Shown: positions 1,701 to 22,884, counted from the first letter of the stretch. The stretch: 64,000 bases of DNA from a candidate division Kazan bacterium GW2011_GWA1_50_15 (GCA_001029795.1 CP011216.1:350767-414766), one strand, 5' to 3'. A program made the numbers and translations. The notes: generated by a model not told the origin, from the letters alone.

Positions 1701-2471
1701 CTACTGTTGACGGGGTGGCGTGAAATCCCGAACATAACCGACCTGCCGGTACTTGCCGCGCAGTTTATTCCAAGTAATTTTAAACAAATCCTTTAGCGTA
1801 CGGATGGCCTCTCGTCCGGTGCGAACTTTGGATTCAAAATCGTTGTACCAGTTGATGCCAACCTCCTTGAACCGGTAGCCCAGTTGGCGGGCGATGGCAA
1901 AGGCCTCAATATCGAAACCGAACCTAGTTAGCCGCACATTGGCAAAAATGTTCTGGCCGGCATTGCGCTCAAATAATTTAAATCCGCACTGGGTGTCCCA
2001 CACACCGGGCACGGCCATAAACCGAATAAGGAGGTTGGATAACCGCGAGAGAATAATCCGATGGCGGGCTTGCGGGACATGGACATGCGCGCCTTTGATG
2101 TAGCGGGAGCCGAAGATAACTGGGTACTCTTTAGTAAACGGCCAAAACTTTTCAACTTCTTCGATAGGTGTGGCGTTGTCGGCGTCGGTGAATAGTACCC
2201 AGCGGCCGTGGGCGGAAAGCATCCCCCGCTTGACCACGGCGCCTTTACCCTGATTATGTGTAGCGGTCAGCAGTCGTAGCTGCGGCCAACCCTCGGCGAT
2301 AATTTTCACTATCTCGCGGGTGGTGTCGCCACTGCCATCATCCGAGACGACCACTTCGTAACCGTAACTCTGCGCGTCTAAATACGCCCGCAGTTTGGTG
2401 AGGGTCTTCCCGATGCGACGCTCTTCGTTGTAGGCCGGAATGACGACCGAAAGGTAGATATCCATATACAT
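1701..2471 (-). CDS. family 2 glycosyltransferase, GtrB / dolichol-phosphate-mannose-synthase-like (polyprenyl-phosphate sugar transferase)
   Basis: VVIPAYNEE ... SDDGSGDTT ... DAD motifs of GT2 on a 256-aa protein of GtrB/DPM1 size; adjacent to a GtrA-like gene. Confidence 0.75.
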   Translation of the reverse strand: MYMDIYLSVVIPAYNEERRIGKTLTKLRAYLDAQSYGYEVVVSDDGSGDTTREIVKIIAEGWPQLRLLTATHNQGKGAVVKRGMLSAHGRWVLFTDADNATPIEEVEKFWPFTKEYPVIFGSRYIKGAHVHVPQARHRIILSRLSNLLIRFMAVPGVWDTQCGFKLFERNAGQNIFANVRLTRFGFDIEAFAIARQLGYRFKEVGINWYNDFESKVRTGREAIRTLKDLFKITWNKLRGKYRQVGYVRDFTPPRQQ

Positions 2472-2596
2472 ACATTATGTCATTCTGAGCGATTCTGCTG
2501 CAAAAGCAGAAGAGTCGAAGAATCTAGTTTTGGCAAGCCGGAACGGCTTTGCCTAGATCCTTCGCTTCCGCTCAGGATGACCCCGGCTGGCCGGGG

Positions 2597-2971
2597 TTAT
2601 TTCTTGAACACCAATTTTTTGCTGGCGGCAAAGTTCCAAGCAAACACGATTGGAATTGAAATTAGCTTCGCCCAGTTATAATGCCATGGAACCACCTCGC
2701 TGAAGTAGTAAACCATCAAGTCAGATAACCCCAGACCGATGACCGCCACCAGCACAAACCCGCCTAACTGGAGGTAAGTGTTTCCTTCGCGAGCCCGGAA
2801 GGTCCAATATTTGTTGAAGAAAAAGCTGTTAATGACCGCCACCGAGAACGAGACCGTGTTCGCCCACAATACCGCCCAGCCAAACACCCCCGCCAATAAA
2901 TTAAGAAGCCTAAAATCAATAATAGTGTTAACCACCCCGACTATCCCGAATTTGACGACTTGTTTAAACAT
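2597..2971 (-). CDS. GtrA-family small membrane protein (putative polyprenyl-P-sugar flippase)
   Basis: 124 aa with 4 predicted TM helices and the FGIVGVVNTIIDF N-terminus typical of the GtrA family; sits next to the GT2 gene. Confidence 0.65.
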   Translation of the reverse strand: MFKQVVKFGIVGVVNTIIDFRLLNLLAGVFGWAVLWANTVSFSVAVINSFFFNKYWTFRAREGNTYLQLGGFVLVAVIGLGLSDLMVYYFSEVVPWHYNWAKLISIPIVFAWNFAASKKLVFKK

Positions 2972-3692
2972 TTTTGCGCGCTACCACGACTACACTACTC
3001 CCCCACGGGAACCCCCGGCCTTTGGCTAAATAATTTGCCTCCAATCGGCTGAAACTGATCAGGATTTTATCCACCCACGAACTAGTCGCTACATACGAAG
3101 TTTTGGGCTTAGCGCCTTTGGTCAAAAATCGCACCAACACCACCAGCGGGAAAGTAAAGAAAAAGAATGGTGAAATAAATTGCACCGCAAAGCCCGTCTC
3201 GCGGAATTTAGCTCGCAGTTCACCAACCGAATACCGCCGGAAGTGGTGCAGGGCCTTGTCGTGCGCCGACCACAACCACTGGTGGGCCGGCACGGTAATC
3301 ATCAAATAACCGCCGGGTTTCAGCGCCTGCCACCAAGACCGCAGGGCGACCTTGTCGTTTTCGATATGTTCCAACACATCAAACGCCACCGCCAAGTCAT
3401 ACTCGCTAGTAATCCCCAACTCCGTACCGTCTATCTGCAATAGTTCGTCATAGGCGTGTTGCTCGCGGCAGAACGCCAACGCTTCCGGGCTGGGATCCAC
3501 CCCCGCTACCCTACCCCATTTTTTCAGCCACCAATAGTTGACGCCAGTGCCGCAACCGATATCCAAGATCTCCAACTGGCCGCCAATCGGCAAGTGGCTG
3601 GCCAATACTTTTTGCAAAACCCGCCGCCGGCCGATGTGCCACCAGTAGTGCTGTTCCTGCTTCTCCATCTGCCCGTATTCGGCGAGCTCCAT
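2964..3692 (-). CDS. class I SAM-dependent methyltransferase
   Basis: LDIGCGTG motif I and VLEHI motif; 242 aa; overlaps the gtrA-like start by 8 nt (operon). Confidence 0.7.
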   Translation of the reverse strand: MELAEYGQMEKQEQHYWWHIGRRRVLQKVLASHLPIGGQLEILDIGCGTGVNYWWLKKWGRVAGVDPSPEALAFCREQHAYDELLQIDGTELGITSEYDLAVAFDVLEHIENDKVALRSWWQALKPGGYLMITVPAHQWLWSAHDKALHHFRRYSVGELRAKFRETGFAVQFISPFFFFTFPLVVLVRFLTKGAKPKTSYVATSSWVDKILISFSRLEANYLAKGRGFPWGSSVVVVARKNV

Positions 3693-10908: not shown

Positions 10909-10931
10909 ATCGCCTTTCCCCCATTCATTAA

Positions 10932-11005
10932 CCACCCGTAGCTCAGCGGACCAGAGCGTCTGACTACGGATCAGAAGGTCGTGGGTTCAAATCCCATCGG
11001 GTGGT
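10932..11005 (+). tRNA. tRNA-Arg (anticodon ACG)
   Basis: Hand-folded cloverleaf: acceptor CCACCCG/CGGGTGG, anticodon loop CTACGGA, T-loop TTCAAAT. Confidence 0.8.
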
Positions 11006-11028
11006 TATTTTCTCCGCTCTACCTCCGT

Positions 11029-11100
11029 GCGCCTATAGCTCAACGGACAGAGCATCCGCCTTCTAAGCGGGGGGTGCGGGTTCGACTCCCGCTAGGCGTA
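11029..11100 (+). tRNA. tRNA-Arg (anticodon TCT)
   Basis: Acceptor GCGCCTA/TAGGCGT, anticodon loop CTTCTAA, T-arm GCGGG-TTCGACT-CCCGC. Confidence 0.8.
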
Positions 11101-11108
11101 GGTTTACT

Positions 11109-11182
11109 GCGCTTGTAGCTCAGCGGACTAGAGCGCGAGATTCCGAATCTCGAGGGCGGGGGTTCAAATCCCCTCAAGCGCA
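11109..11182 (+). tRNA. tRNA-Arg (anticodon CCG)
   Basis: Acceptor GCGCTTG/CAAGCGC, anticodon loop TTCCGAA. Confidence 0.8.
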
Positions 11183-11195
11183 TTTGTTCTTTCTT

Positions 11196-11267
11196 GCCTC
11201 CGTAGCTCAATGGATAGAGCAGCAGTTTCCTAAACTGCGGGTACGGGTTCAACTCCCGTCGGGGGCC
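11196..11267 (+). tRNA. tRNA-Arg (anticodon CCT)
   Basis: Acceptor GCCTCCG/CGGGGGC, anticodon loop TTCCTAA, T-arm ACGGG-TTCAACT-CCCGT. Confidence 0.8.
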
Positions 11268-12416: not shown

Positions 12417-12471
12417 AAGTTAAATTGACCAATTAATACTGTATCATTATACCCGCAAGTCCCGGCTACCG

Positions 12472-12520
12472 CAGGGGTTAGCCCCACCCGGGGGCCCTCC
12501 GTGGTGGGTGCGGACCTGGC
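12472..12520. other. GC-rich extended hairpin in the divergent intergenic region
   Basis: GCCCCACC ... GGTGGGGC outer stem with a nested CCCACC/GGTGGG alternative pairing; the local GC is far above its surroundings. Confidence 0.3.
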
Positions 12521-12642
12521 CAGGTGGGGCAAAAAGAGGACTAAATCTGGCCCGGATTTATATCAATAAACTAGCCCTAGAGGCGATTTTAGCTCTGCCC
12601 AGTCATTCTGCCCCAGCCGCATCTAACGGGGGTGTTCTCCTA

Positions 12643-12671
12643 ACCGACTATTGACAGAGATTAGGAAGTGT
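12643..12671 (+). promoter_or_regulatory. sigma70-like promoter with extended -10
   Basis: TTGACA-17 nt-TGaTATACT, about 175 nt upstream of the WxL-like gene. Confidence 0.55.
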
Positions 12672-12786
12672 GATATACTGAAATAATTACGCTGAGACGG
12701 GTGGAGTGGGACCAGATGGCTGGCTCGTCCGGATCTGAAAAATTACTCGGTTCTGACTTGGATGCCGGCAACGAAAAAAAATTATA

Positions 12787-12816
12787 AAAAAGTGTTGCAT
12801 TAGTTTTATAAAAAAG
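12787..12816 (+). promoter_or_regulatory. second sigma70-like promoter
   Basis: TTGCAT-18 nt-TATAGT, followed by a GGGGGT SD and the ATG at 12848. Confidence 0.45.
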
Positions 12817-12847
12817 TTTATAGTCAAATTGTTGCGGGGGTAATAGC

Positions 12848-13480
12848 ATGAAAAATAAAATCACTCTCTTTCTGCGCAAGCAAGCCGAAGTCAATCGCCA
12901 AGCGTTGGTCTTGGGCGCGGTTTTGTTTTTCACTGGGTTAATGTCTACCGGCATCGTGAGCATGGTGCGAGCCGCCACAGACAACACCAATGTTTCCTTA
13001 AATGTAGCCGCTGGTGCGCTTTCCGTTACTGCTCCCGCCCAGCTGAACTTCAACCAAGGTACCTCGACTCCGGGTGGCACCGCTATTATGAACACTGGTA
13101 CGGGCAATATTATCGAAACGAACGACCCGCGAGGTACTGGAGCGGGTTGGACACTGAGCGGATATTACAACAACATCTTTGAGAATGCCGATAAGAGCGT
13201 TAACTTGAAAATAAATGACACCGGTTCCGTCCTGCGAGCGCTGTGGAAGCCTAACGATATGACCATCGAAAATAATACTGGTGTTTCTGGCGATGTCCAA
13301 GAGAGTGTTATGAACAACTTCCCCAACATTGGTTCTGGCAACAAGTTGCCCATGGCGGTGGCCGCTTCTGGTAACGGGCAAGGTACTTTCAACTATGTTA
13401 ACTTGCAGTTCAACTACAACGTTTCGACCGAAGCCACTCCAGAGGATTACACTACCGAGTTTATCTTCGAGCTTGTCTAA
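12848..13480 (+). CDS. secreted WxL-domain-like surface protein
   Basis: Signal peptide followed by a beta-rich N/T/G-rich body. It has the LxVxAPxQLNF entry motif and DPRGTGAGWTLSGYY, which matches the first WxL-domain motif (D-x-RG-x3-GW-x-L). 210 aa. Confidence 0.55.
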   Translation: MKNKITLFLRKQAEVNRQALVLGAVLFFTGLMSTGIVSMVRAATDNTNVSLNVAAGALSVTAPAQLNFNQGTSTPGGTAIMNTGTGNIIETNDPRGTGAGWTLSGYYNNIFENADKSVNLKINDTGSVLRALWKPNDMTIENNTGVSGDVQESVMNNFPNIGSGNKLPMAVAASGNGQGTFNYVNLQFNYNVSTEATPEDYTTEFIFELV

Positions 13481-13502
13481 CGGATAGTTAAATTTGCATA
13501 AA

Positions 13503-13534
13503 AAAACGGCGAGCCGATTAGCTCGCTGTTTTTA
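13503..13534 (+). terminator. rho-independent terminator
   Basis: GCGAGC-cgatta-GCTCGC followed by TGTTTTT. Confidence 0.55.
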
Positions 13535-13597
13535 AGTTTACCAGCTATACACCTCGGACATAGAGTGGTCTCGTCGCTCGTGATAGTATAAACTTGT

Positions 13598-15157
13598 ATG
13601 TCTCGTCACCCAAAACCAGAATCAACTCGGTGGTCAGCCCCATTCATCTGGGCCTGGCCTCATTTTCGGATGAGCATTGTGGAGTGGCTATTGATTCTGC
13701 CCCTACTGGCCCTAAGTGCTAGACCACTCGTTGACCCCGACTTTGGCTGGCACCTGCGCTCCGGGATGGACCTGCTGAAAAATCTGTCTGTCCCCCGGTT
13801 GGACCCGTATTCGTACACCGCTCCCCACTGGCCGTGGGTTAACCATGAATGGTTGAGCGACGGGATGGCGGCCTTCGTCTACAACATCGGAGGCCCGTTC
13901 GTCCTGATTGCTCTCTTTGCCCTAACCGTCAGCGGGGCTTTCTTGTTGGCGGCGTCTCTCGGCAAACTGGAGCTAAAATACAAACTGCTGGCCAGCGTGA
14001 TGGCCGGGTTGGCCGCCTTACCCATCCTAGGAGTGCGGATGCAGATGCTCACCCTGCTGGGAATGGCTTTGGTGCTGTGGGCGCTTTATCGTTTCCGCAA
14101 TAAAGAAATAAAAAATCTTTGGTGGCTGATACCGGTGTTCTGGCTGTGGACCAATCTGCACGGAGGATTCCTGATGGGGTTAGTTATCTTGGCGGTGTTC
14201 TTTGTGGCTGAAATCATTAAATATACCAGCGAGCGGGTTTGGCCAAAATTTTATCGGCGTCTGCATATCGCCGAAGTTGGTTTTTCGCTCCCCCAATTGC
14301 GTCATTTGATCTGGGTGGGGTTGGGTTCGGGACTAGTAACGCTCATTAACCCTTACGGCTGGGGGCTGTACTACGATTTCTACAAACTATTTTCCACGCC
14401 TTTTGCTACTGAAAGCATCGCCGAGTGGCAGCCGGTTATCCTAAGCAATATTGGCGCTCAGAACTACACCATATATATATCGGTGCTACTCTTGCTCCTG
14501 CTTTTAACCTACCGCAAGGTGGAACCGACCCGCTGGCTATTGATGGGAGTGTTCTTCTATCTTTCACTCCTGTATTGGCGGAACTTGCCGTTCTTTATGA
14601 TCGTTAGCGTGGGATTTTTGGCCGAGACCATCTATCAACATACTCATCTGGTTTTTGATGGTATGGTGCGTAACCGCTACACCCTATTGGTAATCACAGC
14701 GGTCGTAGCCAGCATGGTCGCTCAGTGGATATCGGATGTCATCCCCAAAACAGCTAATCTAGACGCGACCTTCGCGGCTGGCGGATACCCCATCAACGCA
14801 GTCAACTGGGCCAAGACCAACCCCGATAAGCTCGGGACTAAAATGTTCAATGAGTATGGCCACGGTGGCTTCCTCGTGTGGCAGTTCCCCGAACAAAAGG
14901 TGTTCATCGATGGCCGAATGCCTTATTGGAGAACGGACAATGACCGGTTAGTTTTTTATGATGAGCAATATATTTTGAACGCTCGCCCGGGGGCTATCGA
15001 GATGATGCAACAAGAGTACGGCGTGGACTGGGTGTTCATTCGGGCTGGCCTGCCATTGGACTGGGCATTAGATGGACAGGCAGACACTTGGGAAAAAGTT
15101 TACTACGATCGCTACGAGGTAATTTATCGCAAGAAGCCGGCAAATGCCGTACAATAA
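13598..15157 (+). CDS. polytopic membrane protein, putative GT-C-type (YfhO/ArnT-like) glycosyltransferase
   Basis: 519 aa with at least 10 predicted TM helices, a DPDFGWH acidic motif in the first extracytoplasmic loop and a roughly 150-aa C-terminal soluble domain. Confidence 0.35.
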   Translation: MSRHPKPESTRWSAPFIWAWPHFRMSIVEWLLILPLLALSARPLVDPDFGWHLRSGMDLLKNLSVPRLDPYSYTAPHWPWVNHEWLSDGMAAFVYNIGGPFVLIALFALTVSGAFLLAASLGKLELKYKLLASVMAGLAALPILGVRMQMLTLLGMALVLWALYRFRNKEIKNLWWLIPVFWLWTNLHGGFLMGLVILAVFFVAEIIKYTSERVWPKFYRRLHIAEVGFSLPQLRHLIWVGLGSGLVTLINPYGWGLYYDFYKLFSTPFATESIAEWQPVILSNIGAQNYTIYISVLLLLLLLTYRKVEPTRWLLMGVFFYLSLLYWRNLPFFMIVSVGFLAETIYQHTHLVFDGMVRNRYTLLVITAVVASMVAQWISDVIPKTANLDATFAAGGYPINAVNWAKTNPDKLGTKMFNEYGHGGFLVWQFPEQKVFIDGRMPYWRTDNDRLVFYDEQYILNARPGAIEMMQQEYGVDWVFIRAGLPLDWALDGQADTWEKVYYDRYEVIYRKKPANAVQ

Positions 15158-15172
15158 GGTTTGTAACAGGAC

Positions 15173-16573
15173 ATGACTGTCAAAACAAAATTTTTTAGTG
15201 GGGGGTTACTGGGGATTATTCTGCTCACTTCTTTGTCGACTCCGGTGGTGGCCTTAGAAGCCGGCGGAGCGGGTATCGCCCCGGCTAATCCCCGGCCTGA
15301 CGAGCCCCTGTCCTCTAGTTGGTTTATCTATGAAGTTAATCCCGGGGATGTATTAGAAGACGATGTCTGGGTACTCAACACTTCGGATAAACCGCTCAAG
15401 ATCAGTATCGACGCGGTCGATGCTATGTCGTTGGGCGGCGGCGGCTTTGGCTTGTTAGATAGATTCCAACCCAATCCCAATCTGGGTGACTGGGTGACAT
15501 TAGAGGCCAGAGAGCTCGAAGTGGCGCCCAAATCTAAAACCAAAGTGCATTTCAAGATTACCGTTCCGGCCGACCCGGAGGTGGGCGACCATATCGGCGG
15601 ACTGGTAGTGATGAAAATGGATAGTGCGCCTGACGCGGTCAGTAAATCGGGCGGAGCGACCGTCAATATTCGGACACGAGTAGGGGCCCGAATCTATCTG
15701 ACCGTCCTAGGGGACATTCATCGTGGCTGGAAAATTTTAGGGAAATCGTTCTTTGGCCGGGGCGATAAGATGGTACTGCGTTTCAAAGTAGCCAACTCCG
15801 GTAATGTCCGAGCTCGCTTCCAGGGTGATGTGCGGATTTATGGTTTGTTTGGCCTGTACGACAAGTGGCCTGACTTAGATGTTGGCGAAATCTGGCCCGG
15901 CAAAACTAACCTTCAAGAGATAGTTTGGCCCGGAAAACCTCGACCAATCTTTGGGCCGTATTTGATGATAGCCACCATCAAAGACACCTATACGCCCATA
16001 TTGGAAACTAGCACTATCCCACCCGCTCCGAAGCCAGTAACGGTCTGGGCGATTACTTTCTTTATCCCTTATCTGCAAAGCTTGATTTTACTGTTCCTGG
16101 TATTCATCGTTTGGTTCATCATCCAATTGCGCCGCTGGCGGCGGATGGTACGGCTGGCCCGCACCGAAGTGGTGGCATACAAGCTCAAAAAAGGCGACCA
16201 TTTGATGGACATCGCCGCCAAGTATGACATCAACTGGAAGTTCCTGGCTCAATTAAATGACATTAAGCCACCATATAGTTTGCACGGGTTGACTACCGTT
16301 TATGTCCCGGACGCTAGGGGGGCTCGGCGGAATATCCCTCTGCCCCGCTTCTGGGGCCCGCTATTTGCTTCGCTCACTCGTTGGCTAAAGTGGTTTAAGA
16401 CAGCTAAGCCATATCAGGTGATCGTGGTGGAAAAAGGCGATACTAAAAAGGTAATCGAGAACTTTACGGGGCTAACCTGGGCTGAAATTCTCCGCTATAA
16501 CAAGTTCCCGGCTACCACTAAGCCCAAAATTGGGCTAGAGATGAAGATCCCAGCGAAACGTAGAAGAAGATAA
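15173..16573 (+). CDS. DUF916/DUF3324-type cell-surface protein with a membrane anchor and two C-terminal LysM domains
   Basis: After the signal peptide, SWFIYEVNPGDVLEDDVWVLNTSDKPLKISIDA matches the DUF916 core (YFDLxVxPGQ ... NxSDKPxxV). A 30-aa hydrophobic segment is followed by RRWRR, then two LysM-like units (YKLKKGDHLMDIAAKYDINWKFLAQLN and VIVVEKGDTKKVIENFTGLTWAEILRYN). Confidence 0.6.
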   Translation: MTVKTKFFSGGLLGIILLTSLSTPVVALEAGGAGIAPANPRPDEPLSSSWFIYEVNPGDVLEDDVWVLNTSDKPLKISIDAVDAMSLGGGGFGLLDRFQPNPNLGDWVTLEARELEVAPKSKTKVHFKITVPADPEVGDHIGGLVVMKMDSAPDAVSKSGGATVNIRTRVGARIYLTVLGDIHRGWKILGKSFFGRGDKMVLRFKVANSGNVRARFQGDVRIYGLFGLYDKWPDLDVGEIWPGKTNLQEIVWPGKPRPIFGPYLMIATIKDTYTPILETSTIPPAPKPVTVWAITFFIPYLQSLILLFLVFIVWFIIQLRRWRRMVRLARTEVVAYKLKKGDHLMDIAAKYDINWKFLAQLNDIKPPYSLHGLTTVYVPDARGARRNIPLPRFWGPLFASLTRWLKWFKTAKPYQVIVVEKGDTKKVIENFTGLTWAEILRYNKFPATTKPKIGLEMKIPAKRRRR

Positions 16574-16593
16574 CAACGTTAAGCCGGGGTAGA

Positions 16594-16625
16594 GAAAAAC
16601 CTGCTTTCAGAGCAGGTTTTTCTTA
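16594..16625 (+). terminator. rho-independent terminator
   Basis: AAAACCTGCT-ttcag-AGCAGGTTTT. Confidence 0.65.
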
Positions 16626-16660
16626 TGCCCCAATTCGGCCCATCTTCCTCCTATGGGCTA

Positions 16661-16689
16661 TTGACATATACCACAAAATATGATATAAT
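16661..16689 (+). promoter_or_regulatory. consensus sigma70 promoter with extended -10
   Basis: TTGACA-17 nt-TGaTATAAT; the AAGGAGG downstream at 16713 has no start codon at the proper spacing. Confidence 0.6.
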
Positions 16690-16760
16690 GGAATGATAGC
16701 CGAAGTGAAACCAAGGAGGACATAAACTCAACTTATTAACCAAGAAAAATCAAAAATAAA

Positions 16761-17447
16761 ATGTTCCATCAGTACCGGCTTGCTCCGGAGCCACTCCAAG
16801 TAGCCAGACATCGGCAGGGGGTGCGGAATGTCCGATGGCAGTTGCGCCACCAGGCGGCGATGCATCGTCAGATGCTCGTTTTGGGCATTGCCTTGTTCGC
16901 GACCGGCACGATGCTCATGGGTATCCCCCAGTTCACTCATGCCGATCCCACCGCCGATACGAATATGGCTCTCAATGTTACCTCTGGTGCTTTGAGCTTA
17001 GACAATGCACCCACCCAGTTAAACTTCACTGCCAGCTCTCCAGGTACCACCACTACTGCCAACACCGACGACGACGGAGTGATTAGTAATGATACCCGAG
17101 GTTCCCAGGCCGGTTGGGATGTGACTGGGTATATCCTCAATAATTTCTACCGCGCGTCCGCTCCCAGCACCCAGATGGATATCATTACGCGTCTGCGCTG
17201 GTTTGCTAACGCGGCCACCATCGCCAATATTACCGGCGCAGACGGTGAGGCAGTTCAGGGCGCCAACGCCAACTTCAACTATGTGGATGAGGCGGGCAAT
17301 TCACTGACCCTAATGAGCGATTCTGGTACTGGTGAAAATGGCGCTGGCGCCTTTAATCTGACCAACCTCAAATTTAACTACGACATCCCTCCGGGTGCCA
17401 CACCGGCCAGCGACTACAAGACCACTCTGCGACTAACCATCGCTTAA
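16761..17447 (+). CDS. secreted WxL-domain-like surface protein (paralog of 12848..13480)
   Basis: Same architecture as the first one, with NDTRGSQAGWDVTGY (GW-x-V variant of the motif) and the matching C-terminal Y-K-T-T-L-R-L strand. The start is uncertain; the signal peptide is the MHRQMLVLGIALFATGT segment. Confidence 0.5.
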   Translation: MFHQYRLAPEPLQVARHRQGVRNVRWQLRHQAAMHRQMLVLGIALFATGTMLMGIPQFTHADPTADTNMALNVTSGALSLDNAPTQLNFTASSPGTTTTANTDDDGVISNDTRGSQAGWDVTGYILNNFYRASAPSTQMDIITRLRWFANAATIANITGADGEAVQGANANFNYVDEAGNSLTLMSDSGTGENGAGAFNLTNLKFNYDIPPGATPASDYKTTLRLTIA

Positions 17448-17510
17448 TGTCACAAGTCCGGCTACTTTGATAGCGGTGCGGGTGGAGTTCGGCCTCGCTT
17501 TTAAAGTACA

Positions 17511-18938
17511 ATGGATAGCGTGGGGAACAAACATCCGCAAAATCATATACAACGCGTCATTGGCCTGATTGGCCTACTTTTGGTTTTGGGCAGTGGGACA
17601 AACACCTCTCCTACCGGCGCCGCCTCCACCGGCAGTATCGGTGTCGTCCCGGCTTTTCCCGACCCTGCCATTCAGTTGTCTAAAAGTTGGTTTTTATATG
17701 AGGTTGATCCGGGGGCGACGATCGAGGACACGGCTCGAATAACTAATCGGGGTGAGAGCGAGATGCGTATCAATCTCGAGGCGCTGGATGCATTTATGAC
17801 CCCGGACGGGTCTTTCGCGTTGGCCGGCGCAACCAATGAAAATCAAGATATTGGCACTTGGGTGGAGTTGGAAACCGGAGAAGTGACCGTTCCGGCCGGA
17901 CAGGCCAAGCTGGTAAAATTTAAAATTACTGTACCTCAAGATGCCGAGGTGGGTGACCACATTGGCGGGCTGGCTGTGCAAAAAATGACCGATGAGCCGG
18001 ACATCACCTTAAAAAGCGGTGGCACCCAGCTGGGTATTGTTACGCGGGCCGGGGCGCGCATCTATCTGACCGTCAAAGGCGACATCCAGCGTAGTCTGCG
18101 TTTGACTGGCCGTTCGCTAGTCAGCCGAAACGACAAAATGGTTCTTCGCTTGCGTTGGGATAACCGTGGCAATGTCCGAGCGACTCCAGAACTGGTCGAG
18201 GGACGCATCTGGGGTATCTTTGGTCTGTACGACCGGGTGGAGAATACCGACTTGGGCGAGATATTCCCCCACAAAAGCACGATCAAAGAGACCGTCTGGC
18301 CCGGCAAGAACCGGCCGCTGTTCGGTCCGTTTTTGGCCCGGCTCACAATTCAGGATACATTTGTGGGCCTTAACCCCGCCAGCCCACTGCCTGCCACCCA
18401 GCCGATGACGGTCTGGCTGTTCGTCTTCTTTGTTCCCTACCTTCAGCTACTGGTTATTTTGGCGGTTCTCTTTCTACTCTGGTGCGCCTGGCAGTTCCGC
18501 CGCTGGCAGTATTTAATCCAACTAGCCGGATGCCCGGTAGTGGCCTATCGCGTCAAGAGGAGCGACCATCTCGTGGGTGTGGCCGAGCGATATGGTCTGA
18601 ACTGGAAACTGCTGGCCCGGCTGAATAATCTGAAGCCACCATATAGCTTGCATAATGTGGCGAATCTCTATCTCCCAGATGCTCGGGGCCGTAGGCGGCC
18701 AGCGGAGGTGCCAAACTTTTTCCGATACCTTATTGGCCCGCTAACTAATTTCATCAACCGCGGGAAATCGCATTATACTATTGTTATAGAGCGGGGTGAT
18801 ACTGCCAAAACGGTCACAAAGTTCACGCATATGCCTTGGGCTGAAATATTAGCTTATAATCACCTGAAGATCTCTGCTCGCCCAAAAGTAGGGATGGAGC
18901 TGAAAGTCCCCCGGCGACAGCGGAAGCGCTTCCGCTAG
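17511..18938 (+). CDS. DUF916/DUF3324-type cell-surface protein with a membrane anchor and two LysM domains (paralog of 15173..16573)
   Basis: SWFLYEVDPGATIEDTARITNRGESEMRINLEA DUF916 core, the same TM segment followed by RRWQ, then two LysM-like units (YRVKRSDHLVGVAERYGLNWKLLARLN and IVIERGDTAKTVTKFTHMPWAEILAYN). Confidence 0.6.
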   Translation: MDSVGNKHPQNHIQRVIGLIGLLLVLGSGTNTSPTGAASTGSIGVVPAFPDPAIQLSKSWFLYEVDPGATIEDTARITNRGESEMRINLEALDAFMTPDGSFALAGATNENQDIGTWVELETGEVTVPAGQAKLVKFKITVPQDAEVGDHIGGLAVQKMTDEPDITLKSGGTQLGIVTRAGARIYLTVKGDIQRSLRLTGRSLVSRNDKMVLRLRWDNRGNVRATPELVEGRIWGIFGLYDRVENTDLGEIFPHKSTIKETVWPGKNRPLFGPFLARLTIQDTFVGLNPASPLPATQPMTVWLFVFFVPYLQLLVILAVLFLLWCAWQFRRWQYLIQLAGCPVVAYRVKRSDHLVGVAERYGLNWKLLARLNNLKPPYSLHNVANLYLPDARGRRRPAEVPNFFRYLIGPLTNFINRGKSHYTIVIERGDTAKTVTKFTHMPWAEILAYNHLKISARPKVGMELKVPRRQRKRFR

Positions 18939-19007
18939 CGTTGTGTCATTGACGCACTAAACTGAGTAGCTGTCTTAATAACATAGTACTTTACGATAAT
19001 CATGCTA

Positions 19008-19040
19008 ATAAAAACGGCGAGTTTTAATCGCCGTTTTTTA
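19008..19040. terminator. bidirectional rho-independent terminator between convergent genes
   Basis: AAAACGGCGA-gtttta-TCGCCGTTTTTT, with an A-run on one side and a T-run on the other. Confidence 0.65.
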
Positions 19041-19107
19041 ATGAGCTAACTTCGTATCATCGGTCTGTAAGAGCCGAAAACCCCATCTGTATGATTTCAA
19101 CAACAGG

Positions 19108-21009
19108 CTAAGGGAACCTTATGAGAAGTGCTGAACTGACGCTCGTAAACTCATCCTCAACCCCAACTGGAGTATTCTCGATGCCGTTCGGAATATCCAC
19201 CGTCCCAGTTGGAATGGCTAGAATCTCGGCAGGAACGGTTTCAGCACCGCTGGGTGTGTTACCCACTACTGCATCGAGGGTGGAGAATTGACCGTAGGCA
19301 TCACTGGCTCTGCCAACCAAATAAACCTGGCCGTCTGGGGTAGACATAATGCCGAGCGCTTGGCTGCCCCATTCGCCATACCAAATCTGATGCGACAACA
19401 TGTTTCCCAGCTGCGAATACGTGGAGAGAGATATGCTACCCCCCACGTTGCCAGCGACTAAAACATTACCACCGCTTTCTATGGTCACCCCGTGTGCGTA
19501 GTCGTCACCTGCCATACCCCATGTCCTCTGCCAAACCAAATCACCAGACGGCGAATATTTCACGAGAAATGCTTCATTCTCGTAGTAATTTCTACCAAAG
19601 CTGGTAGTGTATCCTACTGCGTAGATATCTCCGCTGGGGTCAACTGTGACTGCGGTTGCCAAATCACTGATGCTACCGCCCCATGTCTTTTGCCACAGGA
19701 AATCGCCGGAGGGCGAGCACACAACCACAAATGCATCATCTTGGCCGGCCCCAAAACTCCATGTACGACCGACCACAACAATGCGATTGTTAGCGTCAAC
19801 CGCGATGCCGAACGCCCTATCATTACCGGCTCCACCCCATATGCGTTGCCAAAGCAGGTCGCCTGCCGGAGAAATTCTCACTAAAAACGCATTCTCATCG
19901 TCTGACCCTAAAACACGTGTGACGCCGGCTATGTAGATGGACCCTGATTCATCCAACGCGATGGCGTACCCCTCGTCTCGGCTATTGTTGTTACTCCACA
20001 TCCTCTGCCAAAGCAAATCGCCTGATGGTGAGTATTTGAGAATTACTACGTTGACATCACCACCGATAACGCAGCGCCCTACTACATATATATTCCCCTC
20101 TGTGTCGATTGCAATGTCACCTCCTTCATCAGCAGATGGGGTACCCCATGTTTTTACCCAAAGTAGCTGGCCATCAGACGAGTAGTTTAGCACTAGGACA
20201 TCAGAGCCACCGGCTCCAAAGCTGGACGTCCCGCCAGTTGTGCAGATATTGCCATTTATACCAACTGCAACCGCCCCGGCTCCGTCGGACAACGGCCCTC
20301 CCCATGTGTGAGCCCATGTTGGAGCAGTAATCATTGACGACTGTGTCCCAACTGCATTTTCGTCATCGGTGATACGAAGAAGCGTTGTGTAGGTACCTAC
20401 CGAAGTGTAGGTGTGGACCATTTCACCCTGAGTGCCGGTAAAGTCTAGGAAGATGCCATCACCCAAATCCCACTCCCATTTGACGATGGAACCGTCAGGG
20501 TCGTAAGAACTAGCGGCTGAAAAAGTTACTTTCAATGGAGTCGAACCGGATACCGGACCAACATTGGCAATGGCAATTGGATTGGCATTCAACCCATCAG
20601 CCAGAGTGATCTGGATGTGAGCTATGTCTTTCTTGCCTTCACTGTCCGTTACTCTTAAATGAGCGGTATAGACACCGGCTACTGTATAGGTATGCCAAGC
20701 ATCTCCCTCAGTTTCAGTATAGTCATGCCAACCACCTTGACCTTCCTCTTCATCGGCAAAGTTCCACTCCCAAGAGATAATGCTATCTCCCTCTGGGTCA
20801 TAGGAACCACCATCCATGAAGTGAACCGTCAAGGGCACTCCCCCCGAGGTGGGGGTAGCCGCTGGAACGGCAATGGGTTTGCCATTGCCGCCTTGGATGT
20901 GGCGGGTAGGAGCTGAAGCTGCCGGCTCATCCGGAACGGTCTGACGCTGGGTCTTGGAGCAAGCTCCCAGAACCAACAGACATACCAACGCAACCAATAT
21001 CTTCTTCAT
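19108..21009 (-). CDS. lipoprotein with two PKD domains and SBBP-type beta-propeller repeats
   Basis: An AAGGAGG SD sits 7 nt before MKKILVALVCLLVLGAC (lipobox LGAC). There are two PKD-like units (WEWNF..GDG.., WEWDLGDG) and then about 8 repeats of the GDLLWQ(R/K)TWGG SBBP motif. Confidence 0.6.
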   Translation of the reverse strand: MKKILVALVCLLVLGACSKTQRQTVPDEPAASAPTRHIQGGNGKPIAVPAATPTSGGVPLTVHFMDGGSYDPEGDSIISWEWNFADEEEGQGGWHDYTETEGDAWHTYTVAGVYTAHLRVTDSEGKKDIAHIQITLADGLNANPIAIANVGPVSGSTPLKVTFSAASSYDPDGSIVKWEWDLGDGIFLDFTGTQGEMVHTYTSVGTYTTLLRITDDENAVGTQSSMITAPTWAHTWGGPLSDGAGAVAVGINGNICTTGGTSSFGAGGSDVLVLNYSSDGQLLWVKTWGTPSADEGGDIAIDTEGNIYVVGRCVIGGDVNVVILKYSPSGDLLWQRMWSNNNSRDEGYAIALDESGSIYIAGVTRVLGSDDENAFLVRISPAGDLLWQRIWGGAGNDRAFGIAVDANNRIVVVGRTWSFGAGQDDAFVVVCSPSGDFLWQKTWGGSISDLATAVTVDPSGDIYAVGYTTSFGRNYYENEAFLVKYSPSGDLVWQRTWGMAGDDYAHGVTIESGGNVLVAGNVGGSISLSTYSQLGNMLSHQIWYGEWGSQALGIMSTPDGQVYLVGRASDAYGQFSTLDAVVGNTPSGAETVPAEILAIPTGTVDIPNGIENTPVGVEDEFTSVSSALLIRFP

Positions 21010-21182: not shown

Positions 21183-22772
21183 ATGATATCCAATATACGA
21201 TTGATCGATCGAAACCAGTCCTCTCATCATTGGCGATGGTTAGCTTGGTGGTTAATAATTGTGGTGATTATGGTTGCTGCTGTATTTCCGCCCCGCCCCG
21301 CTCGAGCGGCTGACCCAAATATGGTTATCTTTATGGATTGGGCGGACTTGGGTGCCACTCCGATCGGCTGGACAGTCGTATCTGATAGTGGTGACACCTT
21401 TTACAATAAGTATGTTATGGCGAGTAACACTTATGAGTCGACTGGCGGGAACCCTACTCACACTCACACCCTCGCTATCGTTGATAGCGGCGCCACCAAT
21501 GACTCCGGCAACAACATCGACAAGGGCGGTACCGGCACTACCGTTTCCGAGCAGTCCCACACTCACGCCGCGTTAGCCAGCTCCTCCATCACTCCAGACA
21601 ACAACTTGCCAAATTATCGCTCTTTGGCTGTCTTGGAATACACTACTGGCGGCATCCCCTCCACTCTGCCAGACAACGCCATTGTCATGCGAGAAGATAC
21701 TACTCTGGTTGGTAACTGGGAGCTCTATAGCGCCAACGACGCCCGTTTAGTGCGTGGTAGTAACTCTACTGCCAATGGTGGCGATAATAATCCCACCCAC
21801 ACCGTGGCTTCCGGTCTGGGAGCCGGCGGTACCAGCCGAGTCGCCGGTGCTGGCGGTACTGCCCGCGCCACCGTCACCCACACCCACGCCGCCGGCAGTG
21901 GCGTGGCAAGTAATGGGCCTGACATTATTCCGCCATATAATGAATTGGTCTTTGTCCGTGCCACTGCCGCCATCACCTCCCTCCCCGACCAGATGATAGC
22001 CGGATTCTCCGGTACCGCTTTTGATTCTGGTGATTGGACAGTAGTATCTGCATCTAGTGGCACTGCCGAACAGACCAAATACTATAGCCGATTTTTGATG
22101 GGCGATAGTTCCGGTACTTTGACTATTGATGGCGGTGGCCTCACCCATAGCCATGCCAATGTGGACATTAGCACTGGCACACCGACCGGGTCGGCCAACT
22201 ACGATGTTGCTCCGTCCAACGGCACCGCCGCCACTACCGGCCATGTCCATACGGGAGTGACTATCTCGCTGGAAGCCAATGTGAACCATGTTCCCGAATA
22301 CGCTACACTAGTGCTGGCGCAATATACCCAACCCGCCTCTTTGAGTATTAACTCTGAATCTACTCTTGTAGACTTAGGCGAGAGCAACCCAGGAGTGACC
22401 ACAGCTGACTACACTTTTAGCACTAGTGAGGAGATCATTGTGGATTCCACTGATTATGCTACTTGGAGCTTGACTGTCGATGCGACAGATTTTATTTCCG
22501 GCATTAAGATTATTGCGGATGACAGGTTTGATCTAGCCACTAACGGTAATCTTGGCACAGAACCAACCCTAATAGCCGTCGTCGGGTCAGGAACCGTGAC
22601 TGAAGTGAATAATGGTTATGCTAATTTCAATTCAACTCAATCTCTTGCTAGTCTGTCTGGCGGATCAGGATCTATTACGGCAACGGTCAGGCCTACGATT
22701 CGGGTCAGAATCCCAGCAGATGCCGAGCTTGCCAATGACTACCTATCCTTGGTGGACTTCACGGTTGTATAG
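21183..22772 (+). CDS. secreted Gly/Thr/His-rich triple-repeat protein (His-box repeats; phage tail-fibre-like or adhesin-like?)
   Basis: N-terminal signal anchor followed by three roughly 85-aa repeats, each with (N)PTHTH ... SHTHA / THTHA / HSHAN...GHVHT and ending (I/L/V)P(N/P/E)Y..L. The C-terminal roughly 150 aa is non-repetitive. Confidence 0.5.
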   Translation: MISNIRLIDRNQSSHHWRWLAWWLIIVVIMVAAVFPPRPARAADPNMVIFMDWADLGATPIGWTVVSDSGDTFYNKYVMASNTYESTGGNPTHTHTLAIVDSGATNDSGNNIDKGGTGTTVSEQSHTHAALASSSITPDNNLPNYRSLAVLEYTTGGIPSTLPDNAIVMREDTTLVGNWELYSANDARLVRGSNSTANGGDNNPTHTVASGLGAGGTSRVAGAGGTARATVTHTHAAGSGVASNGPDIIPPYNELVFVRATAAITSLPDQMIAGFSGTAFDSGDWTVVSASSGTAEQTKYYSRFLMGDSSGTLTIDGGGLTHSHANVDISTGTPTGSANYDVAPSNGTAATTGHVHTGVTISLEANVNHVPEYATLVLAQYTQPASLSINSESTLVDLGESNPGVTTADYTFSTSEEIIVDSTDYATWSLTVDATDFISGIKIIADDRFDLATNGNLGTEPTLIAVVGSGTVTEVNNGYANFNSTQSLASLSGGSGSITATVRPTIRVRIPADAELANDYLSLVDFTVV

Positions 22773-22879: not shown

Positions 22880-22884
22880 CCCCA

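What the first reader, a model, noticed from the sequence alone, without database searches (positions are those of the whole stretch)
12848..18938. Duplicated WxL-like / DUF916-DUF3324 surface-protein module with novel LysM-LysM tails and an embedded GT-C-like membrane protein
Seen: two paralogous secreted beta-rich proteins (210 and 228 aa) carrying DPRGTGAGWTLS / NDTRGSQAGWDVT, which matches the first WxL-domain motif, plus the LxVxAPxQLNF entry strand. Each is followed (one of them after an intervening 519-aa polytopic membrane protein) by a 466/475-aa protein. Those larger proteins have an N-terminal domain matching the DUF916 core (SWF(I/L)YEV(N/D)PG ... N(T/R)(S/G)(D/E)) and a DUF3324-like C-terminal region.

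New relative to the Firmicute WxL loci I know: after the roughly 30-aa hydrophobic anchor and RRWRR, each large protein continues with two LysM-like units. Taken at face value, this places peptidoglycan-binding LysM domains on the cytoplasmic side of a single-pass protein, or else requires the anchor to be a helical hairpin.

Inference: WxL-type cell-wall attachment loci are described mainly in Lactobacillales, Listeria and Bacillus. A duplicated, LysM-fused version in a CPR-like genome suggests adaptation for binding a host or partner cell wall (episymbiosis).
Basis: partly seen in the sequence, partly recalled or inferred. Interest (0 to 1): 0.7.

Follow-up and report, generated by a model that had tools for sequence, protein, structure and literature searches.

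The report
WxL-type surface operon with glycosyltransferase
An ultra-small "Kazan" (CPR) bacterium carries its own version of the Gram-positive WxL surface-protein gene cluster, in which the membrane scaffold protein has LysM sugar-binding domains placed inside the cell and is always partnered with an oligosaccharyltransferase-like membrane enzyme.

Summary
All five ORFs and the quoted motifs are present, and the window is candidate division Kazan bacterium GW2011_GWA1_50_15.

- **B1/B2:** these pass Pfam WxLIP_PGBD (DUF916) and LysM (two units each). An AlphaFold model of B2 best matches the crystal structure of E. faecium WxLIP bound to long WxL.
- **A1/A2:** these are divergent WxL domains. 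They fall below the Pfam cut-off, but 58 of 72 remote relatives match Pfam WxL.
- **A missed fourth component:** the 529-aa protein at 21183-22772 ends in a homologous WxL-like domain. It is the "large WxL" partner.
- **The 519-aa membrane protein (M):** it is not an insertion. It is the best-conserved gene of a recurrent A-M-B-L operon. It has a GT-C fold, closest to AglB/STT3/PglB and DPY19. It accompanies B only when B carries LysM.
- **Topology:** one transmembrane helix, the charge bias, and relatives built TM-LysM-TM-LytR_C all put the LysM domains in the cytoplasm. No DUF3324 HMM hit was found.

Verdict: a new variant of a known kind. The role of the cytoplasmic LysM tail and the acceptor of the GT-C enzyme remain inferred.

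The parts
12651..12679 (+). Sigma-70-like promoter candidate upstream of A1 (TTGACA-17-TATACT with a TG extension).
   Evidence: 11 of 12 matches. It is the second-best of 13 sites in 12300-23000, and the total count does not exceed chance. This is a consensus match only.
12848..13480 (+). A1, a small WxL-like secreted protein (210 aa). It has a long conserved n-region plus a signal peptide (aa 1-42, ending ...VRA|A). The first WxL motif, GAGW-T-L, is at aa 98-103. The C-terminal strand DYTTEFIFELV stands where the second WxL motif would be, and it has no Trp.
   Evidence: WxL 20.8 bits, cut-off 25; 58 of 72 remote relatives match Pfam WxL; UniRef name 'WxL domain-containing protein'.
13598..15157 (+). 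M, a polytopic GT-C-fold glycosyltransferase (519 aa; NCBI aa). An invariant DPDFGW motif lies at the start of the first external loop (aa 46-51). A C-terminal alpha/beta domain covers aa 399-519.
15173..16573 (+). B1, a WxLIP-like type I membrane protein (466 aa). Layout: signal peptide aa 1-29, DUF916 aa 47-146, a second beta-sandwich to about aa 297, TM helix aa 300-319, RRWRR, LysM1 aa 333-380, LysM2 aa 414-460, then a basic tail.
16661..16689 (+). Sigma-70-like promoter candidate upstream of A2 (TTGACA-17-TATAAT with a TG extension).
   Evidence: 12 of 12 matches, the best site in the region. This is a consensus match only.
16761..17447 (+). A2, a second small WxL-like protein (228 aa as the ORF is read). 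Its motif is AGW-D-V at aa 117-121.
   Evidence: (WxL 13.7 bits).
17511..18938 (+). B2, a second WxLIP-like protein (475 aa). Layout: beta-sandwich 1 (DUF916) aa 43-176, beta-sandwich 2 aa 180-307, one helix aa 310-339 (membrane part aa 310-329), LysM1 aa 343-389, amphipathic helix aa 403-415, LysM2 aa 421-467.
   Evidence: AF2 pLDDT 84. Foldseek 9i25_C E 7e-14, 278 columns..
21183..22772 (+). L, a large WxL-like protein (529 aa). The N-terminal half is variable and carries HxH...PxYxxL repeats. The C-terminal domain (about aa 301-529) is conserved, homologous to the A domain, and ends DYLSLVDFTVV.
   Evidence: E 3e-10 to L001_L.; hhalign of A against the L C-terminus, probability 90%, E 1.5e-6. 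L C-terminal HMM E 1e-84..
1701..3692 (-). GT2 (1701-2471), GtrA-family membrane protein (2597-2971) and methyltransferase (2964-3692). These are candidate suppliers of a polyprenyl-phosphate-sugar donor for M. The link rests on conserved synteny only.
   Evidence: One search gives the Pfam hits. The same trio lies upstream in L001, L006, L007 and L010. In L024, GT2, DUF2079 and a methyltransferase sit inside the operon.

Best explanation
This is a Kazan/CPR variant of the Gram-positive WxL cell-surface protein cluster. It is built from four gene families.
- **A:** a small WxL-like secreted protein. There are two copies here.
- **L:** a large protein with a variable, adhesin-like N-terminus and a C-terminal WxL-like domain.
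- **B:** a WxLIP-like type I membrane protein. There are two copies here.
- **M:** a GT-C glycosyltransferase.

Most likely mechanism:
- **Tethering (inferred by homology to 9i25).** The two Ig-like ectodomains of B capture the WxL-like domains of A and L by beta-strand complementation, as in the E. faecium WxLIP-long WxL complex. This holds A and L at the cell surface.
- **Glycosylation (fold shown; donor and acceptor inferred).** M has an oligosaccharyltransferase/DPY19-like fold. It probably transfers sugar from a polyprenyl-linked donor, made by the nearby GT2/GtrA genes, onto an extracytoplasmic acceptor. The likeliest acceptors are the Asn/Ser/Thr-rich A and L proteins or the wall around them.
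- **LysM tail (location supported; ligand inferred).** The two LysM domains of B lie in the cytoplasm, held close to the inner membrane face. They couple B to this glycosylation pathway. They would do so by binding either a GlcNAc-bearing lipid-linked precursor, as the SpoVID LysM binds lipid II, or a protein partner such as M or the conserved n-region of pre-A.

The window holds two transcription units, A1-M-B1 and A2-B2. L is displaced downstream by an inserted minus-strand lipoprotein gene.
For: **Identity of B**
- PF06030 and LysM pass the Pfam cut-offs in B1 and B2, and both hit in 23 of 23 family members.
- A profile of the family hits EfmWxLIP1 in the PDB.
- The AF2 model best matches 9i25_C, 'WxLIP bound to long WxL', over 278 columns (E 7e-14, TM 0.57). 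The next matches are chaperone-usher chaperones.

**Identity of A and L**
- WxL is the only recurrent Pfam hit.
- An A-family profile finds 94 proteins among 1.84 billion. Of the 72 distant ones scanned, 58 match Pfam WxL (best E 2e-18).
- A Thermoleophilia neighbour of a B homologue scores 45.6 bits on Pfam WxL.
- hhalign of A against the L C-terminus gives probability 90%.

**Operon**
- The order A-M-B-L recurs in at least 11 distinct Kazan-like loci.
- M is 55-80% identical across these loci.
- The A and B trees are congruent.

**M**
- The AF2 model has pLDDT 93.
- Other glycosylation genes lie in or next to the operon: GT2, GtrA, DUF2079, PMT_2 and a methyltransferase.

**Coupling of M with LysM**
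- LysM-bearing B genes with M in the same locus: 22. Without M, with flanks visible: 1.
- LysM-less B genes with M: 0. Without M, with flanks visible: 6.
- Fisher p = 1.5e-5.
- M lies on either side of B in different lineages (L050).

**Topology**
- B has a signal peptide and one predicted helix.
- Flanking charge is 0 to -2 on the outer side and +2 to +5 on the inner side. The tail is net +10 to +24.
- Relatives with TM-LysM-TM (L024, L043, L050) include one that ends in LytR_C.

**Precedent for cytosolic LysM**
- SpoVID binds lipid II and SpoVK (PMC11513918).
- Kbp is a further precedent (PMC9481166).
Against: - No A or L protein reaches the Pfam WxL cut-off. The second WxL motif has no Trp. 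The fold of A was not modelled.
- No DUF3324 HMM hit was found.
- B-A/L binding is extrapolated from a 15-16% identical homologue. No complex was predicted.
- M's acceptor is unknown. Sequon density in A is no higher than its composition predicts.
- M homologues at 40% identity occur in Nitrospirota without A or B, so M is not intrinsically dedicated to this system.
- The A2-B2 pair has no M of its own, and L027 has a LysM-bearing B with no M in view.
- The co-occurrence statistic is not corrected for phylogeny. It rests on perhaps 4-6 independent lineages, all CPR.
- Nothing tested here shows what the LysM tail binds.
- Topology is predicted, not measured.
Confidence: 0.6

Rival explanations
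1. The LysM tails are extracellular. This would require an unusual topology, such as a re-entrant or hairpin anchor or post-translational exposure. The tails would bind the bacterium's own or a host's peptidoglycan and so serve as the wall anchor of the complex.
For: - Almost all characterised bacterial LysM domains are extracytoplasmic and bind peptidoglycan (established knowledge).
- Both units keep canonical LysM signatures and pass Pfam.
- A high pI is typical of wall-binding LysM.
- If M makes a GlcNAc-containing surface glycan, an external LysM would explain the M-LysM co-occurrence neatly.
Against: - AF2 gives one continuous 30-residue helix. The preceding hydrophobic stretch is a beta-strand of the ectodomain.
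- The charge bias is strongly positive on the tail side.
- In L024, L043 and L050 the LysM lies between two TM helices. DUF916 is on one side and, in L043, LytR_C is on the other. This places LysM on the face opposite the ectodomain.
Confidence: 0.12
2. M is a general envelope GT-C enzyme, for instance one that decorates a wall polymer. On this reading it merely sits next to the WxL-like genes by descent. The LysM tail and M are not functionally coupled.
For: - M homologues occur in Nitrospirota next to a carbamoyltransferase and a GT2, without A or B.
- The family has more than 1000 members.
- A2-B2 lacks its own M.
- L027 has a LysM-bearing B with no M in view.
- All LysM-bearing loci are CPR, so shared ancestry could produce the correlation.
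Against: - Adjacency is kept down to about 30% identity of B across several CPR lineages, with gaps of 0-186 nt. M can lie upstream or downstream of B.
- CPR loci with a LysM-less B (L026, L028, L049, L051, L054) lack M.
- M is the most conserved gene of the unit.
Confidence: 0.2
3. A and B are not WxL/WxLIP relatives at all. They would be members of another secreted beta-sandwich family, such as TasA/camelysin or pilus chaperone/subunit proteins, that only resemble WxL motifs.
For: - A1 and A2 are below the Pfam WxL cut-off.
- There is no PDB sequence hit for A.
- Chaperone-usher chaperones are the next-best structural matches for B.
Against: - DUF916 is above the cut-off in 23 of 23 B members.
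- WxLIP structures are the top three fold matches.
- WxL is the only recurrent Pfam hit for A-like proteins. It is above the cut-off in L032, and it hits 58 of 72 remote relatives.
- No TasA or camelysin hit appeared in any scan.
Confidence: 0.03

Closest known systems
WxL gene clusters of Lactobacillales, Listeria and Enterococcus: L. plantarum csc clusters, E. faecium WxL loci A-C, and the E. faecalis elr operon (Siezen 2006 PMC1534035; Hassan & Williamson 2022 PMC9772566; Hassan et al. 2023 PMC10599100).
   Same: - The cluster logic is the same: small WxL plus large WxL, with the WxL domain C-terminal, plus a DUF916 membrane protein, all with signal peptides.
[quoted passage not shown]
   Different: - The host is a CPR bacterium, not a Firmicute.
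- The WxL domains are below the Pfam cut-off, and the second motif has lost its Trp.
- No LPxTG partner is seen.
- A GT-C enzyme is a core member of the cluster.
- The WxLIP-like protein carries a 130-150 aa LysM tail.
WxLIP (DUF916-DUF3324-TMH), for example EfmWxLIP1. PDB 9i1y, and 9i25 in complex with long WxL.
   Same: - Signal peptide, two tandem Ig-like domains and a single TM helix.
- PF06030 passes the cut-off.
- It is the best structural match (E 7e-14, 278 columns).
   Different: - Only 15-16% identity.
- The second domain is not recognised by PF11797.
- Canonical WxLIPs are 337-365 aa and end with the 22-residue TMH. Here two LysM domains follow the TM helix.
GT-C glycosyltransferases that modify proteins: the oligosaccharyltransferases AglB, STT3 and PglB, the C-mannosyltransferase DPY19, and PMT. 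Also ArnT.
   Same: - An invariant acidic DPD motif lies at the start of the first external loop.
   Different: - Only 8-13% identity.
- No hit to any Pfam, NCBIfam or PDB sequence model.
- M is smaller, at 519 aa.
- An OST-type WWDYG motif could not be established.
- The donor and acceptor are unknown.
Three-component lipid-carrier glycosylation systems: GtrA/GtrB/GtrC, and CsbB-GtcA-YfhO of Bacillus and Listeria. Recalled from general knowledge, not tested here.
   Same: A GT2, a GtrA-family protein and a GT-C enzyme are encoded in the same conserved neighbourhood.
   Different: - In the window the GT2 and GtrA genes lie about 10 kb away on the other strand.
- No evidence shows that they feed M.
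- M is not a YfhO or GtrC family member by HMM.
Cytosolic LysM proteins: B. subtilis SpoVID (also SafA), and E. coli Kbp.
   Same: LysM acts on the cytoplasmic side. SpoVID binds lipid II and a protein partner (PMC11513918). In Kbp, LysM stabilises a BON domain (PMC9481166).
   Different: - Those are soluble or coat proteins, not the tail of a type I surface-protein scaffold.
- The SpoVID LysM is acidic (pI 4.8). These tails have pI 10-11.

Membership tests
WxL domain (PF13731): A1, A2 and the L C-terminus | Score at or above the Pfam gathering cut-off (25 bits). | tested here: not met
   - A1 scores 20.8 bits and A2 13.7 bits.
- 5 of 10 family members hit, and none reaches the cut-off.
- L has no hit.
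WxL domain (PF13731): A1, A2 and the L C-terminus | Demonstrable homology to bona fide WxL domains. | tested here: met
   - The A profile finds 94 proteins among 1.84e9. Of the 72 distant ones scanned, 58 match PF13731 at E<=0.01, best 2e-18.
- The L032 protein scores 45.6 bits on WxL and E 7e-8 on the A HMM.
- hhalign of A against the L C-terminus gives probability 90%.
WxL domain (PF13731): A1, A2 and the L C-terminus | Two Trp-x-Leu motifs, with the domain at the C-terminus. | tested here: not met
   - First motif: W-T-L in A1, W-D-V in A2, W-S-L in L.
- The second motif position has F, L or I in place of Trp: FIFELV, LRLTIA, VDFTVV.
- The C-terminal location is met.
WxL domain (PF13731): A1, A2 and the L C-terminus | WxL beta-sandwich fold. 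| not tested
WxLIP (DUF916 + DUF3324 + TMH) | DUF916/WxLIP_PGBD (PF06030) at or above the cut-off. | tested here: met
   35.2 and 48.9 bits against 27.3. 23 of 23 members hit.
WxLIP (DUF916 + DUF3324 + TMH) | DUF3324/WxLIP_HBD (PF11797) as the second domain. | tested here: not met
   - 0 of 23 members hit at E<=1.
- A second beta-sandwich does occupy the same position (aa 180-307). It is included in the 278-column alignment to 9i25_C.
WxLIP (DUF916 + DUF3324 + TMH) | Two-domain fold like the solved WxLIP. | tested here: met
   Foldseek: 9i25_C E 7.3e-14 with TMt 0.57, and 9i1y_A E 1.5e-13. These take ranks 1-3.
WxLIP (DUF916 + DUF3324 + TMH) | The protein ends with a single C-terminal TM helix (337-365 aa in total). 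| tested here: not met
   The TM helix is present, but 129-206 further residues carrying 2-3 LysM domains follow it.
WxLIP (DUF916 + DUF3324 + TMH) | Binds the WxL domain by strand insertion. | not testable with these tools
   No multimer prediction is available. The inference rests on 9i25 and.
WxL gene cluster (Hassan et al. 2023 definition) | [quoted passage not shown] | tested here: met
   The window order is A1, M, B1, A2, B2, (646-aa gene), L. The divergent domains are accepted as WxL-like and WxLIP-like.
LysM (PF01476) | HMM score above the cut-off and a beta-alpha-alpha-beta fold. | tested here: met
   - 46.5 and 46.8 bits against 20.9, with two stretches each.
- The AF2 model shows E-H-H-E units at aa 343-389 and 421-467.
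- PDB hits include Ecp6, LytE and SafA.
LysM (PF01476) | Binds GlcNAc-containing glycan. | not testable with these tools
   The signature residues are largely kept: GDxL...N...P in unit 1 and GDT...N...GQELKxP in unit 2.
GT-C glycosyltransferase superfamily | GT-C membrane fold. | tested here: met
   [not shown]
GT-C glycosyltransferase superfamily | Conserved acidic residue(s) at the start of the first extracytoplasmic loop. | tested here: met
   P47, D48, G50 and W51 are invariant in 52 sequences, directly after TM1 (helix 27-40). The catalytic role is inferred.
Oligosaccharyltransferase (STT3/AglB/PglB, PF02516) | An STT3-family HMM hit and the WWDYG and DK/MI motifs in the C-terminal domain. 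| tested here: inconclusive
   - There is no Pfam or PDB sequence hit, even for the C-terminal domain alone.
- An invariant N-x-Y-G-x-G-G (aa 418-424) sits just after the last TM helix, where WWDYG would be. That equivalence is from memory and was not tested.

The most novel reading that the evidence does not exclude
The LysM tail is a true cytoplasmic glycan-sensing or docking module of a cell-surface scaffold. It would bind a lipid-linked, GlcNAc-bearing precursor, or the GT-C enzyme itself, at the inner leaflet. Through the conserved n-region of pre-A it would couple export, glycosylation by a previously undescribed OST-like GT-C family, and capture of WxL-like adhesins into one trans-membrane assembly line. 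If so, this would be a CPR-specific way of building a glycosylated attachment organelle, and the first case of LysM used for inside-out coupling of a surface complex.
Probability: 0.2. Interest if true: 0.75.

Novelty: new variant of a known kind. Interest (0 to 1): 0.55.

Why it matters
**Extension of the WxL system.** WxL clusters are regarded as a Firmicute, largely gut-commensal, adhesion system (PMC9772566). This finding extends the system to CPR bacteria, which depend on surface contact with other cells. Divergent forms also occur in Actinomycetota.

**Two additions not mentioned in the WxL papers read here.**
- An obligatory GT-C partner from a family of more than 1000 members that has no Pfam model. 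Its nearest structural relatives glycosylate proteins.
- LysM domains that sit on the cytoplasmic side of the scaffold.

**Candidate system for protein glycosylation.** If M glycosylates the WxL-like proteins, this would be a compact, genetically linked system for surface-protein glycosylation in a 0.6-Mb genome.

**Model for cytosolic LysM.** If the tail binds a lipid-linked precursor, it offers a simple model for cytosolic LysM function beyond sporulation.

**Testability.** Both ideas can be tested directly with recombinant proteins.

Tried and rejected
- **DUF3324 (PF11797).** It was sought in B1, B2 and 21 relatives at E<=1 and not found.
- **A-family profile against PDB sequences.** This gave only noise (TLR3). 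The WxL chain of 9i25 is out of reach by sequence.
- **BLAST of A1 against the 529-aa protein.** Nothing was found. The relationship appeared only with orthologous L proteins and with profiles.
- **M against sequence libraries.** Pfam, NCBIfam and PDB sequences were searched with the single protein, with the family profile and with the C-terminal domain alone. There were no meaningful hits. Only fold comparison identified it.
- **Sequon enrichment as evidence that A is M's substrate.** Density is 4.5-8 times that of 24 other window proteins. However, it equals the expectation from A's Asn/Ser/Thr-rich composition, so it is not evidence.
- **The hairpin-anchor idea.** Rejected on the AF2 model and on the TM-LysM-TM relatives.
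- **The TasA/camelysin alternative.** No hit appeared in any scan.
- **The afdb50 fold library.** It was unavailable.
- **Promoter and terminator scan.** Overall counts were at chance level. Only the positions of the two best promoter matches are noted.

Full report
**1. What is in the sequence**

| Name | Coordinates | Length |
|---|---|---|
| A1 | 12848-13480 | 210 aa |
| M | 13598-15157 | 519 aa |
| B1 | 15173-16573 | 466 aa |
| A2 | 16761-17447 | 228 aa |
| B2 | 17511-18938 | 475 aa |

The quoted motifs are all there, with one exception: RRWRR occurs only in B1, and B2 reads RRWQY. A1 and A2 are 43% identical (E 3e-35). B1 and B2 are 46% identical.

B2, A1 and M are 100% identical to proteins VE98_C0001G0381, 0377 and 0378 of candidate division Kazan bacterium GW2011_GWA1_50_15. 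The 'CPR-like genome' guess is therefore right. Placing Kazan inside the CPR/Patescibacteria is general knowledge. Many related contigs are labelled Patescibacteria.

**2. The B proteins are WxLIP-like scaffolds with two LysM domains**

*Pfam and PDB sequence searches.*
- Pfam gives WxLIP_PGBD (formerly DUF916) at 35.2 and 48.9 bits against a cut-off of 27.3.
- Pfam gives LysM at 46.5 and 46.8 bits against a cut-off of 20.9, with two stretches each.
- Both families hit in 23 of 23 aligned homologues.
- A family profile finds EfmWxLIP1 (9i1y/9i25) in the PDB, over the DUF916 part only.

*AlphaFold model of B2 (mean pLDDT 84).*
- Two beta-sandwiches: aa 43-176 and aa 180-307.
- One continuous helix: aa 310-339.
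- A LysM unit with beta-alpha-alpha-beta topology: aa 343-389.
- A short amphipathic helix: aa 403-415.
- A second LysM unit: aa 421-467.

*Fold comparison.* Foldseek ranks 9i25_C first ('WxLIP from E. faecium locus A bound to long WxL'; E 7e-14, 278 columns, TM 0.57 on the target). The two chains of 9i1y come second and third. After them come the two-domain chaperones of chaperone-usher pili.

*DUF3324.* PF11797 is not detected in any of the 23 members at E<=1. 'DUF3324-like' therefore holds only for position and fold.

*Departure from the canonical form.* Canonical WxLIPs are 337-365 aa and end with a 22-residue TM helix (PMC10599100). The 129-206-residue LysM tail is a real departure. It is conserved in about 40 homologues, and two of them carry three LysM units.

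**3. The A proteins are divergent WxL domains, and there is a missed 'large WxL' partner**

*Pfam.*
- A1 and A2 score 20.8 and 13.7 bits on Pfam WxL. This is below the cut-off of 25.
- WxL is nonetheless the only family that recurs among A-like proteins from many lineages.
- One such protein, encoded next to a B homologue in a Thermoleophilia MAG, scores 45.6 bits. It is also hit by the A-family HMM (E 7e-8).

*Representative search.* An exhaustive search of 1.84 billion representatives with an A-family profile gave 94 hits at E<=1e-3. Of the 72 distant ones scanned, 58 match Pfam WxL at E<=0.01 (best 2e-18). UniRef already names A1 'WxL domain-containing protein'.

*Motifs.*
- The first WxL motif is present: W-T-L in A1, and W-D-V in A2.
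- The second motif position is the very C-terminal strand. It has lost its Trp: DYTTEFIFELV in A1, and DYKTTLRLTIA in A2.

*The missed partner.* In related genomes the gene after B encodes a protein of 342-1105 aa. Its N-terminus is variable and its last 150-200 residues are conserved.
- The window's 529-aa protein at 21183-22772 carries this domain (E 3e-10 to its orthologue; HMM E 1e-84).
- hhalign relates this domain to the A domain, right to the C-terminus (probability 90%, E 1.5e-6).

The window thus meets the published cluster definition of at least one WxLIP plus a small and a large WxL within four genes.

**4. The membrane protein is a core component and a GT-C enzyme**

*Conserved operon.* The order A-M-B-L recurs in at least 11 distinct Kazan-like loci, next to the same proS/argS and PGA_cap/ComM neighbours as in the window. 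M is the best-conserved gene of the unit, at 55-80% identity.

*The window's arrangement.* The window has an A1-M-B1 unit and an extra A2-B2 pair. L is pushed downstream by a minus-strand PKD/SBBP lipoprotein gene.
- The two best sigma-70-like matches in the region lie just upstream of A1 and A2 (consensus matches only).
- In the A and B trees, A1/B1 group with one lineage and A2/B2 with another, congruently. The pairs are therefore old paralogues that evolve as cognate pairs.

*Sequence and fold of M.*
- M has more than 1000 homologues. None has a Pfam domain on record. Nothing was found by sequence in Pfam, NCBIfam or the PDB.
- Its AlphaFold model is confident (pLDDT 93.3, pTM 0.90).
- Foldseek gives the same picture.
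- An invariant DPDFGW follows TM1, where GT-C enzymes carry their catalytic acidic residues.
- UniRef calls it 'Glycosyltransferase RgtA/B/C/D-like'.
- Resemblances to the STT3 loop-1 motif and to WWDYG are recalled from memory and could not be tested.

*Neighbouring glycosylation genes.*
- A GT2, a GtrA-family protein and a methyltransferase lie upstream in the window and in four related loci.
- In more distant CPR loci, a GT2, DUF2079, a methyltransferase or a PMT_2-type GT-C sit inside the operon.

**5. M travels with the LysM tail**

I scored 59 related loci from genomes and metagenomes with HMMs for A, M, the B ectodomain, the B tail and the L C-terminus.

| B gene type | M in the same locus | No M, with at least 2.5 kb visible on both sides |
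|---|---|---|
| LysM-bearing | 22 | 1 (L027) |
| LysM-less (Parcubacteria and other CPR, Actinomycetes, Streptomyces, Thermoleophilia) | 0 | 6 |

- Of the 22 LysM-bearing B genes with M, 19 have M within 0-186 nt.
- Fisher p = 1.5e-5.
- The test is not corrected for phylogeny, and a few loci are near-duplicates. Perhaps 4-6 independent lineages contribute.
- The linkage persists at about 30% identity of B. It survives a change of order, since M lies downstream of B in L050.

A third trait seems to co-vary. In M/LysM systems, A has a long conserved n-region before its hydrophobic core (K..LL..QAE.NRQ.LVLG, or ENQxRQ in distant lineages). A-like proteins of LysM-less CPR systems have short, ordinary signal peptides.

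**6. Topology**

- Both B proteins start with a standard signal peptide.
- The 'roughly 30-aa hydrophobic segment' splits in the model into the last beta-strand of the ectodomain and a single helix.
- The flanks carry 0 to -2 charges on the N-side and +2 to +5 on the C-side. The tails are net +10 to +24 with pI 10-11.
- Independently, three distant relatives have the LysM between two TM helices. One of them (L043) continues into two LytR_C domains, a typically extracytoplasmic module.

All of this puts the LysM units on the face opposite the DUF916 ectodomain, which is the cytoplasm. The hairpin alternative is not supported.

Cytosolic LysM has precedents:
- E. coli Kbp uses LysM to stabilise a BON domain (PMC9481166).

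**7. Most likely mechanism**

*Shown.*
- The components are homologous to WxL and WxLIP.
- M has the GT-C fold.
- The operon is conserved.
- M associates with the LysM tail.
- The predicted topology places LysM in the cytoplasm.

*Inferred.*
- B tethers A and L at the surface by strand complementation, as in 9i25.
- M transfers sugar from a polyprenyl-linked donor to an external acceptor. The Asn/Ser/Thr-rich A and L proteins are the obvious candidates. An invariant Asn142 followed by x-Thr/Ser occurs in 8 of 10 A sequences, but overall sequon density only reflects composition.
- The cytoplasmic LysM tail docks B onto this pathway, through a lipid-linked GlcNAc-bearing precursor or a protein partner.

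I give about 0.85 to the identity of the system and about 0.4-0.5 to the full mechanism.

**8. Rivals**

- M as a functionally unrelated neighbour: about 0.2. This is supported by Nitrospirota homologues that lack A and B.
- A non-WxL beta-sandwich family: about 0.03.

**9. Novelty**

Public databases already attach automatic names to each protein: WxL, RgtA/B/C/D-like GT and LysM. Full-text searches found no paper among the top-ranked results linking WxL clusters with CPR bacteria. The WxL/WxLIP papers read here describe WxLIP as ending at the TM helix, and 91% of WxL sequences as being in Firmicutes.

I rate this a new variant of a known kind. It is of moderate interest. The cytoplasmic LysM tail and its strict partnership with an OST-like GT-C are the unexpected parts.

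Noticed in passing
window 21183-22772 (+): The N-terminal half of the large WxL-like protein has 3-4 repeats of G..(T/S)H(T/S)H followed by P.Y..L. The HxH sites are at aa 92, 125, 232 and 321, and the PxYxxL sites at aa 143, 250 and 371. From memory, these resemble phage tail-collar (MdpB-type) receptor-binding repeats. Pfam finds nothing. Some orthologues carry DUF7483 instead.
   Followed up: partly
window 12848-12973 and 16761-16943 (N-termini of A1 and A2): The A-family signal peptides have an unusually long n-region (17-28 aa) with invariant residues (A13, R17, Q18: 'QAExNRQ'). The motif recurs as ENQxRQ in CPR lineages that are only 30% identical and that also have M and LysM. It is absent from A-like proteins of LysM-less systems.
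   Followed up: partly
window 19108-21048 (-): A 646-aa lipoprotein with two PKD domains and SBBP beta-propeller repeats sits on the opposite strand between B2 and L. In the other loci L follows B directly.
   Followed up: no
window 13598-15157 and loci L009, P0108-P0164: The M family has more than 1000 members, none with a Pfam domain on record. It extends to Nitrospirota at about 40% identity. In Nitrospira sp. Kam-Ns4a it lies next to a carbamoyltransferase and a GT2.
   Followed up: partly
L043 2715-4814; L024 5941-7686; L050 6440-7864: Distant B relatives have the architecture signal peptide-DUF916-TM-LysM-TM. L043 adds two C-terminal LytR_C domains (70.9 bits).
   Followed up: yes
window 27113-32060 (-): The 23S rRNA match spans 3435 nt against a 2925-nt model, so it contains insertions. 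A LAGLIDADG endonuclease ORF (28049-28597, 90 bits) lies between the 23S end and the 5S gene (27113-27229). No 16S gene is in the window.
   Followed up: no
window 7572-11267 (+): An arginine deiminase (PF02274) is followed by argS and then four tRNA-Arg genes in a row, with anticodons ACG, TCT, CCG and CCT.
   Followed up: no
window 22924-26342 (+): A PaaX_M/Cas2-like domain protein, a PGA_cap protein and a ComM-type Mg-chelatase ATPase follow the cluster. The same trio flanks the cluster in other Kazan genomes.
   Followed up: no
L026, L028, L030-L032, L048, L054: Compact WxL-like clusters, with A-like proteins next to a 318-345-aa B that ends at its TM helix, occur in Parcubacteria and other CPR. 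They also occur in Actinomycetes, Streptomyces and Thermoleophilia. This lies outside the Firmicute range usually quoted for WxL clusters.
   Followed up: partly
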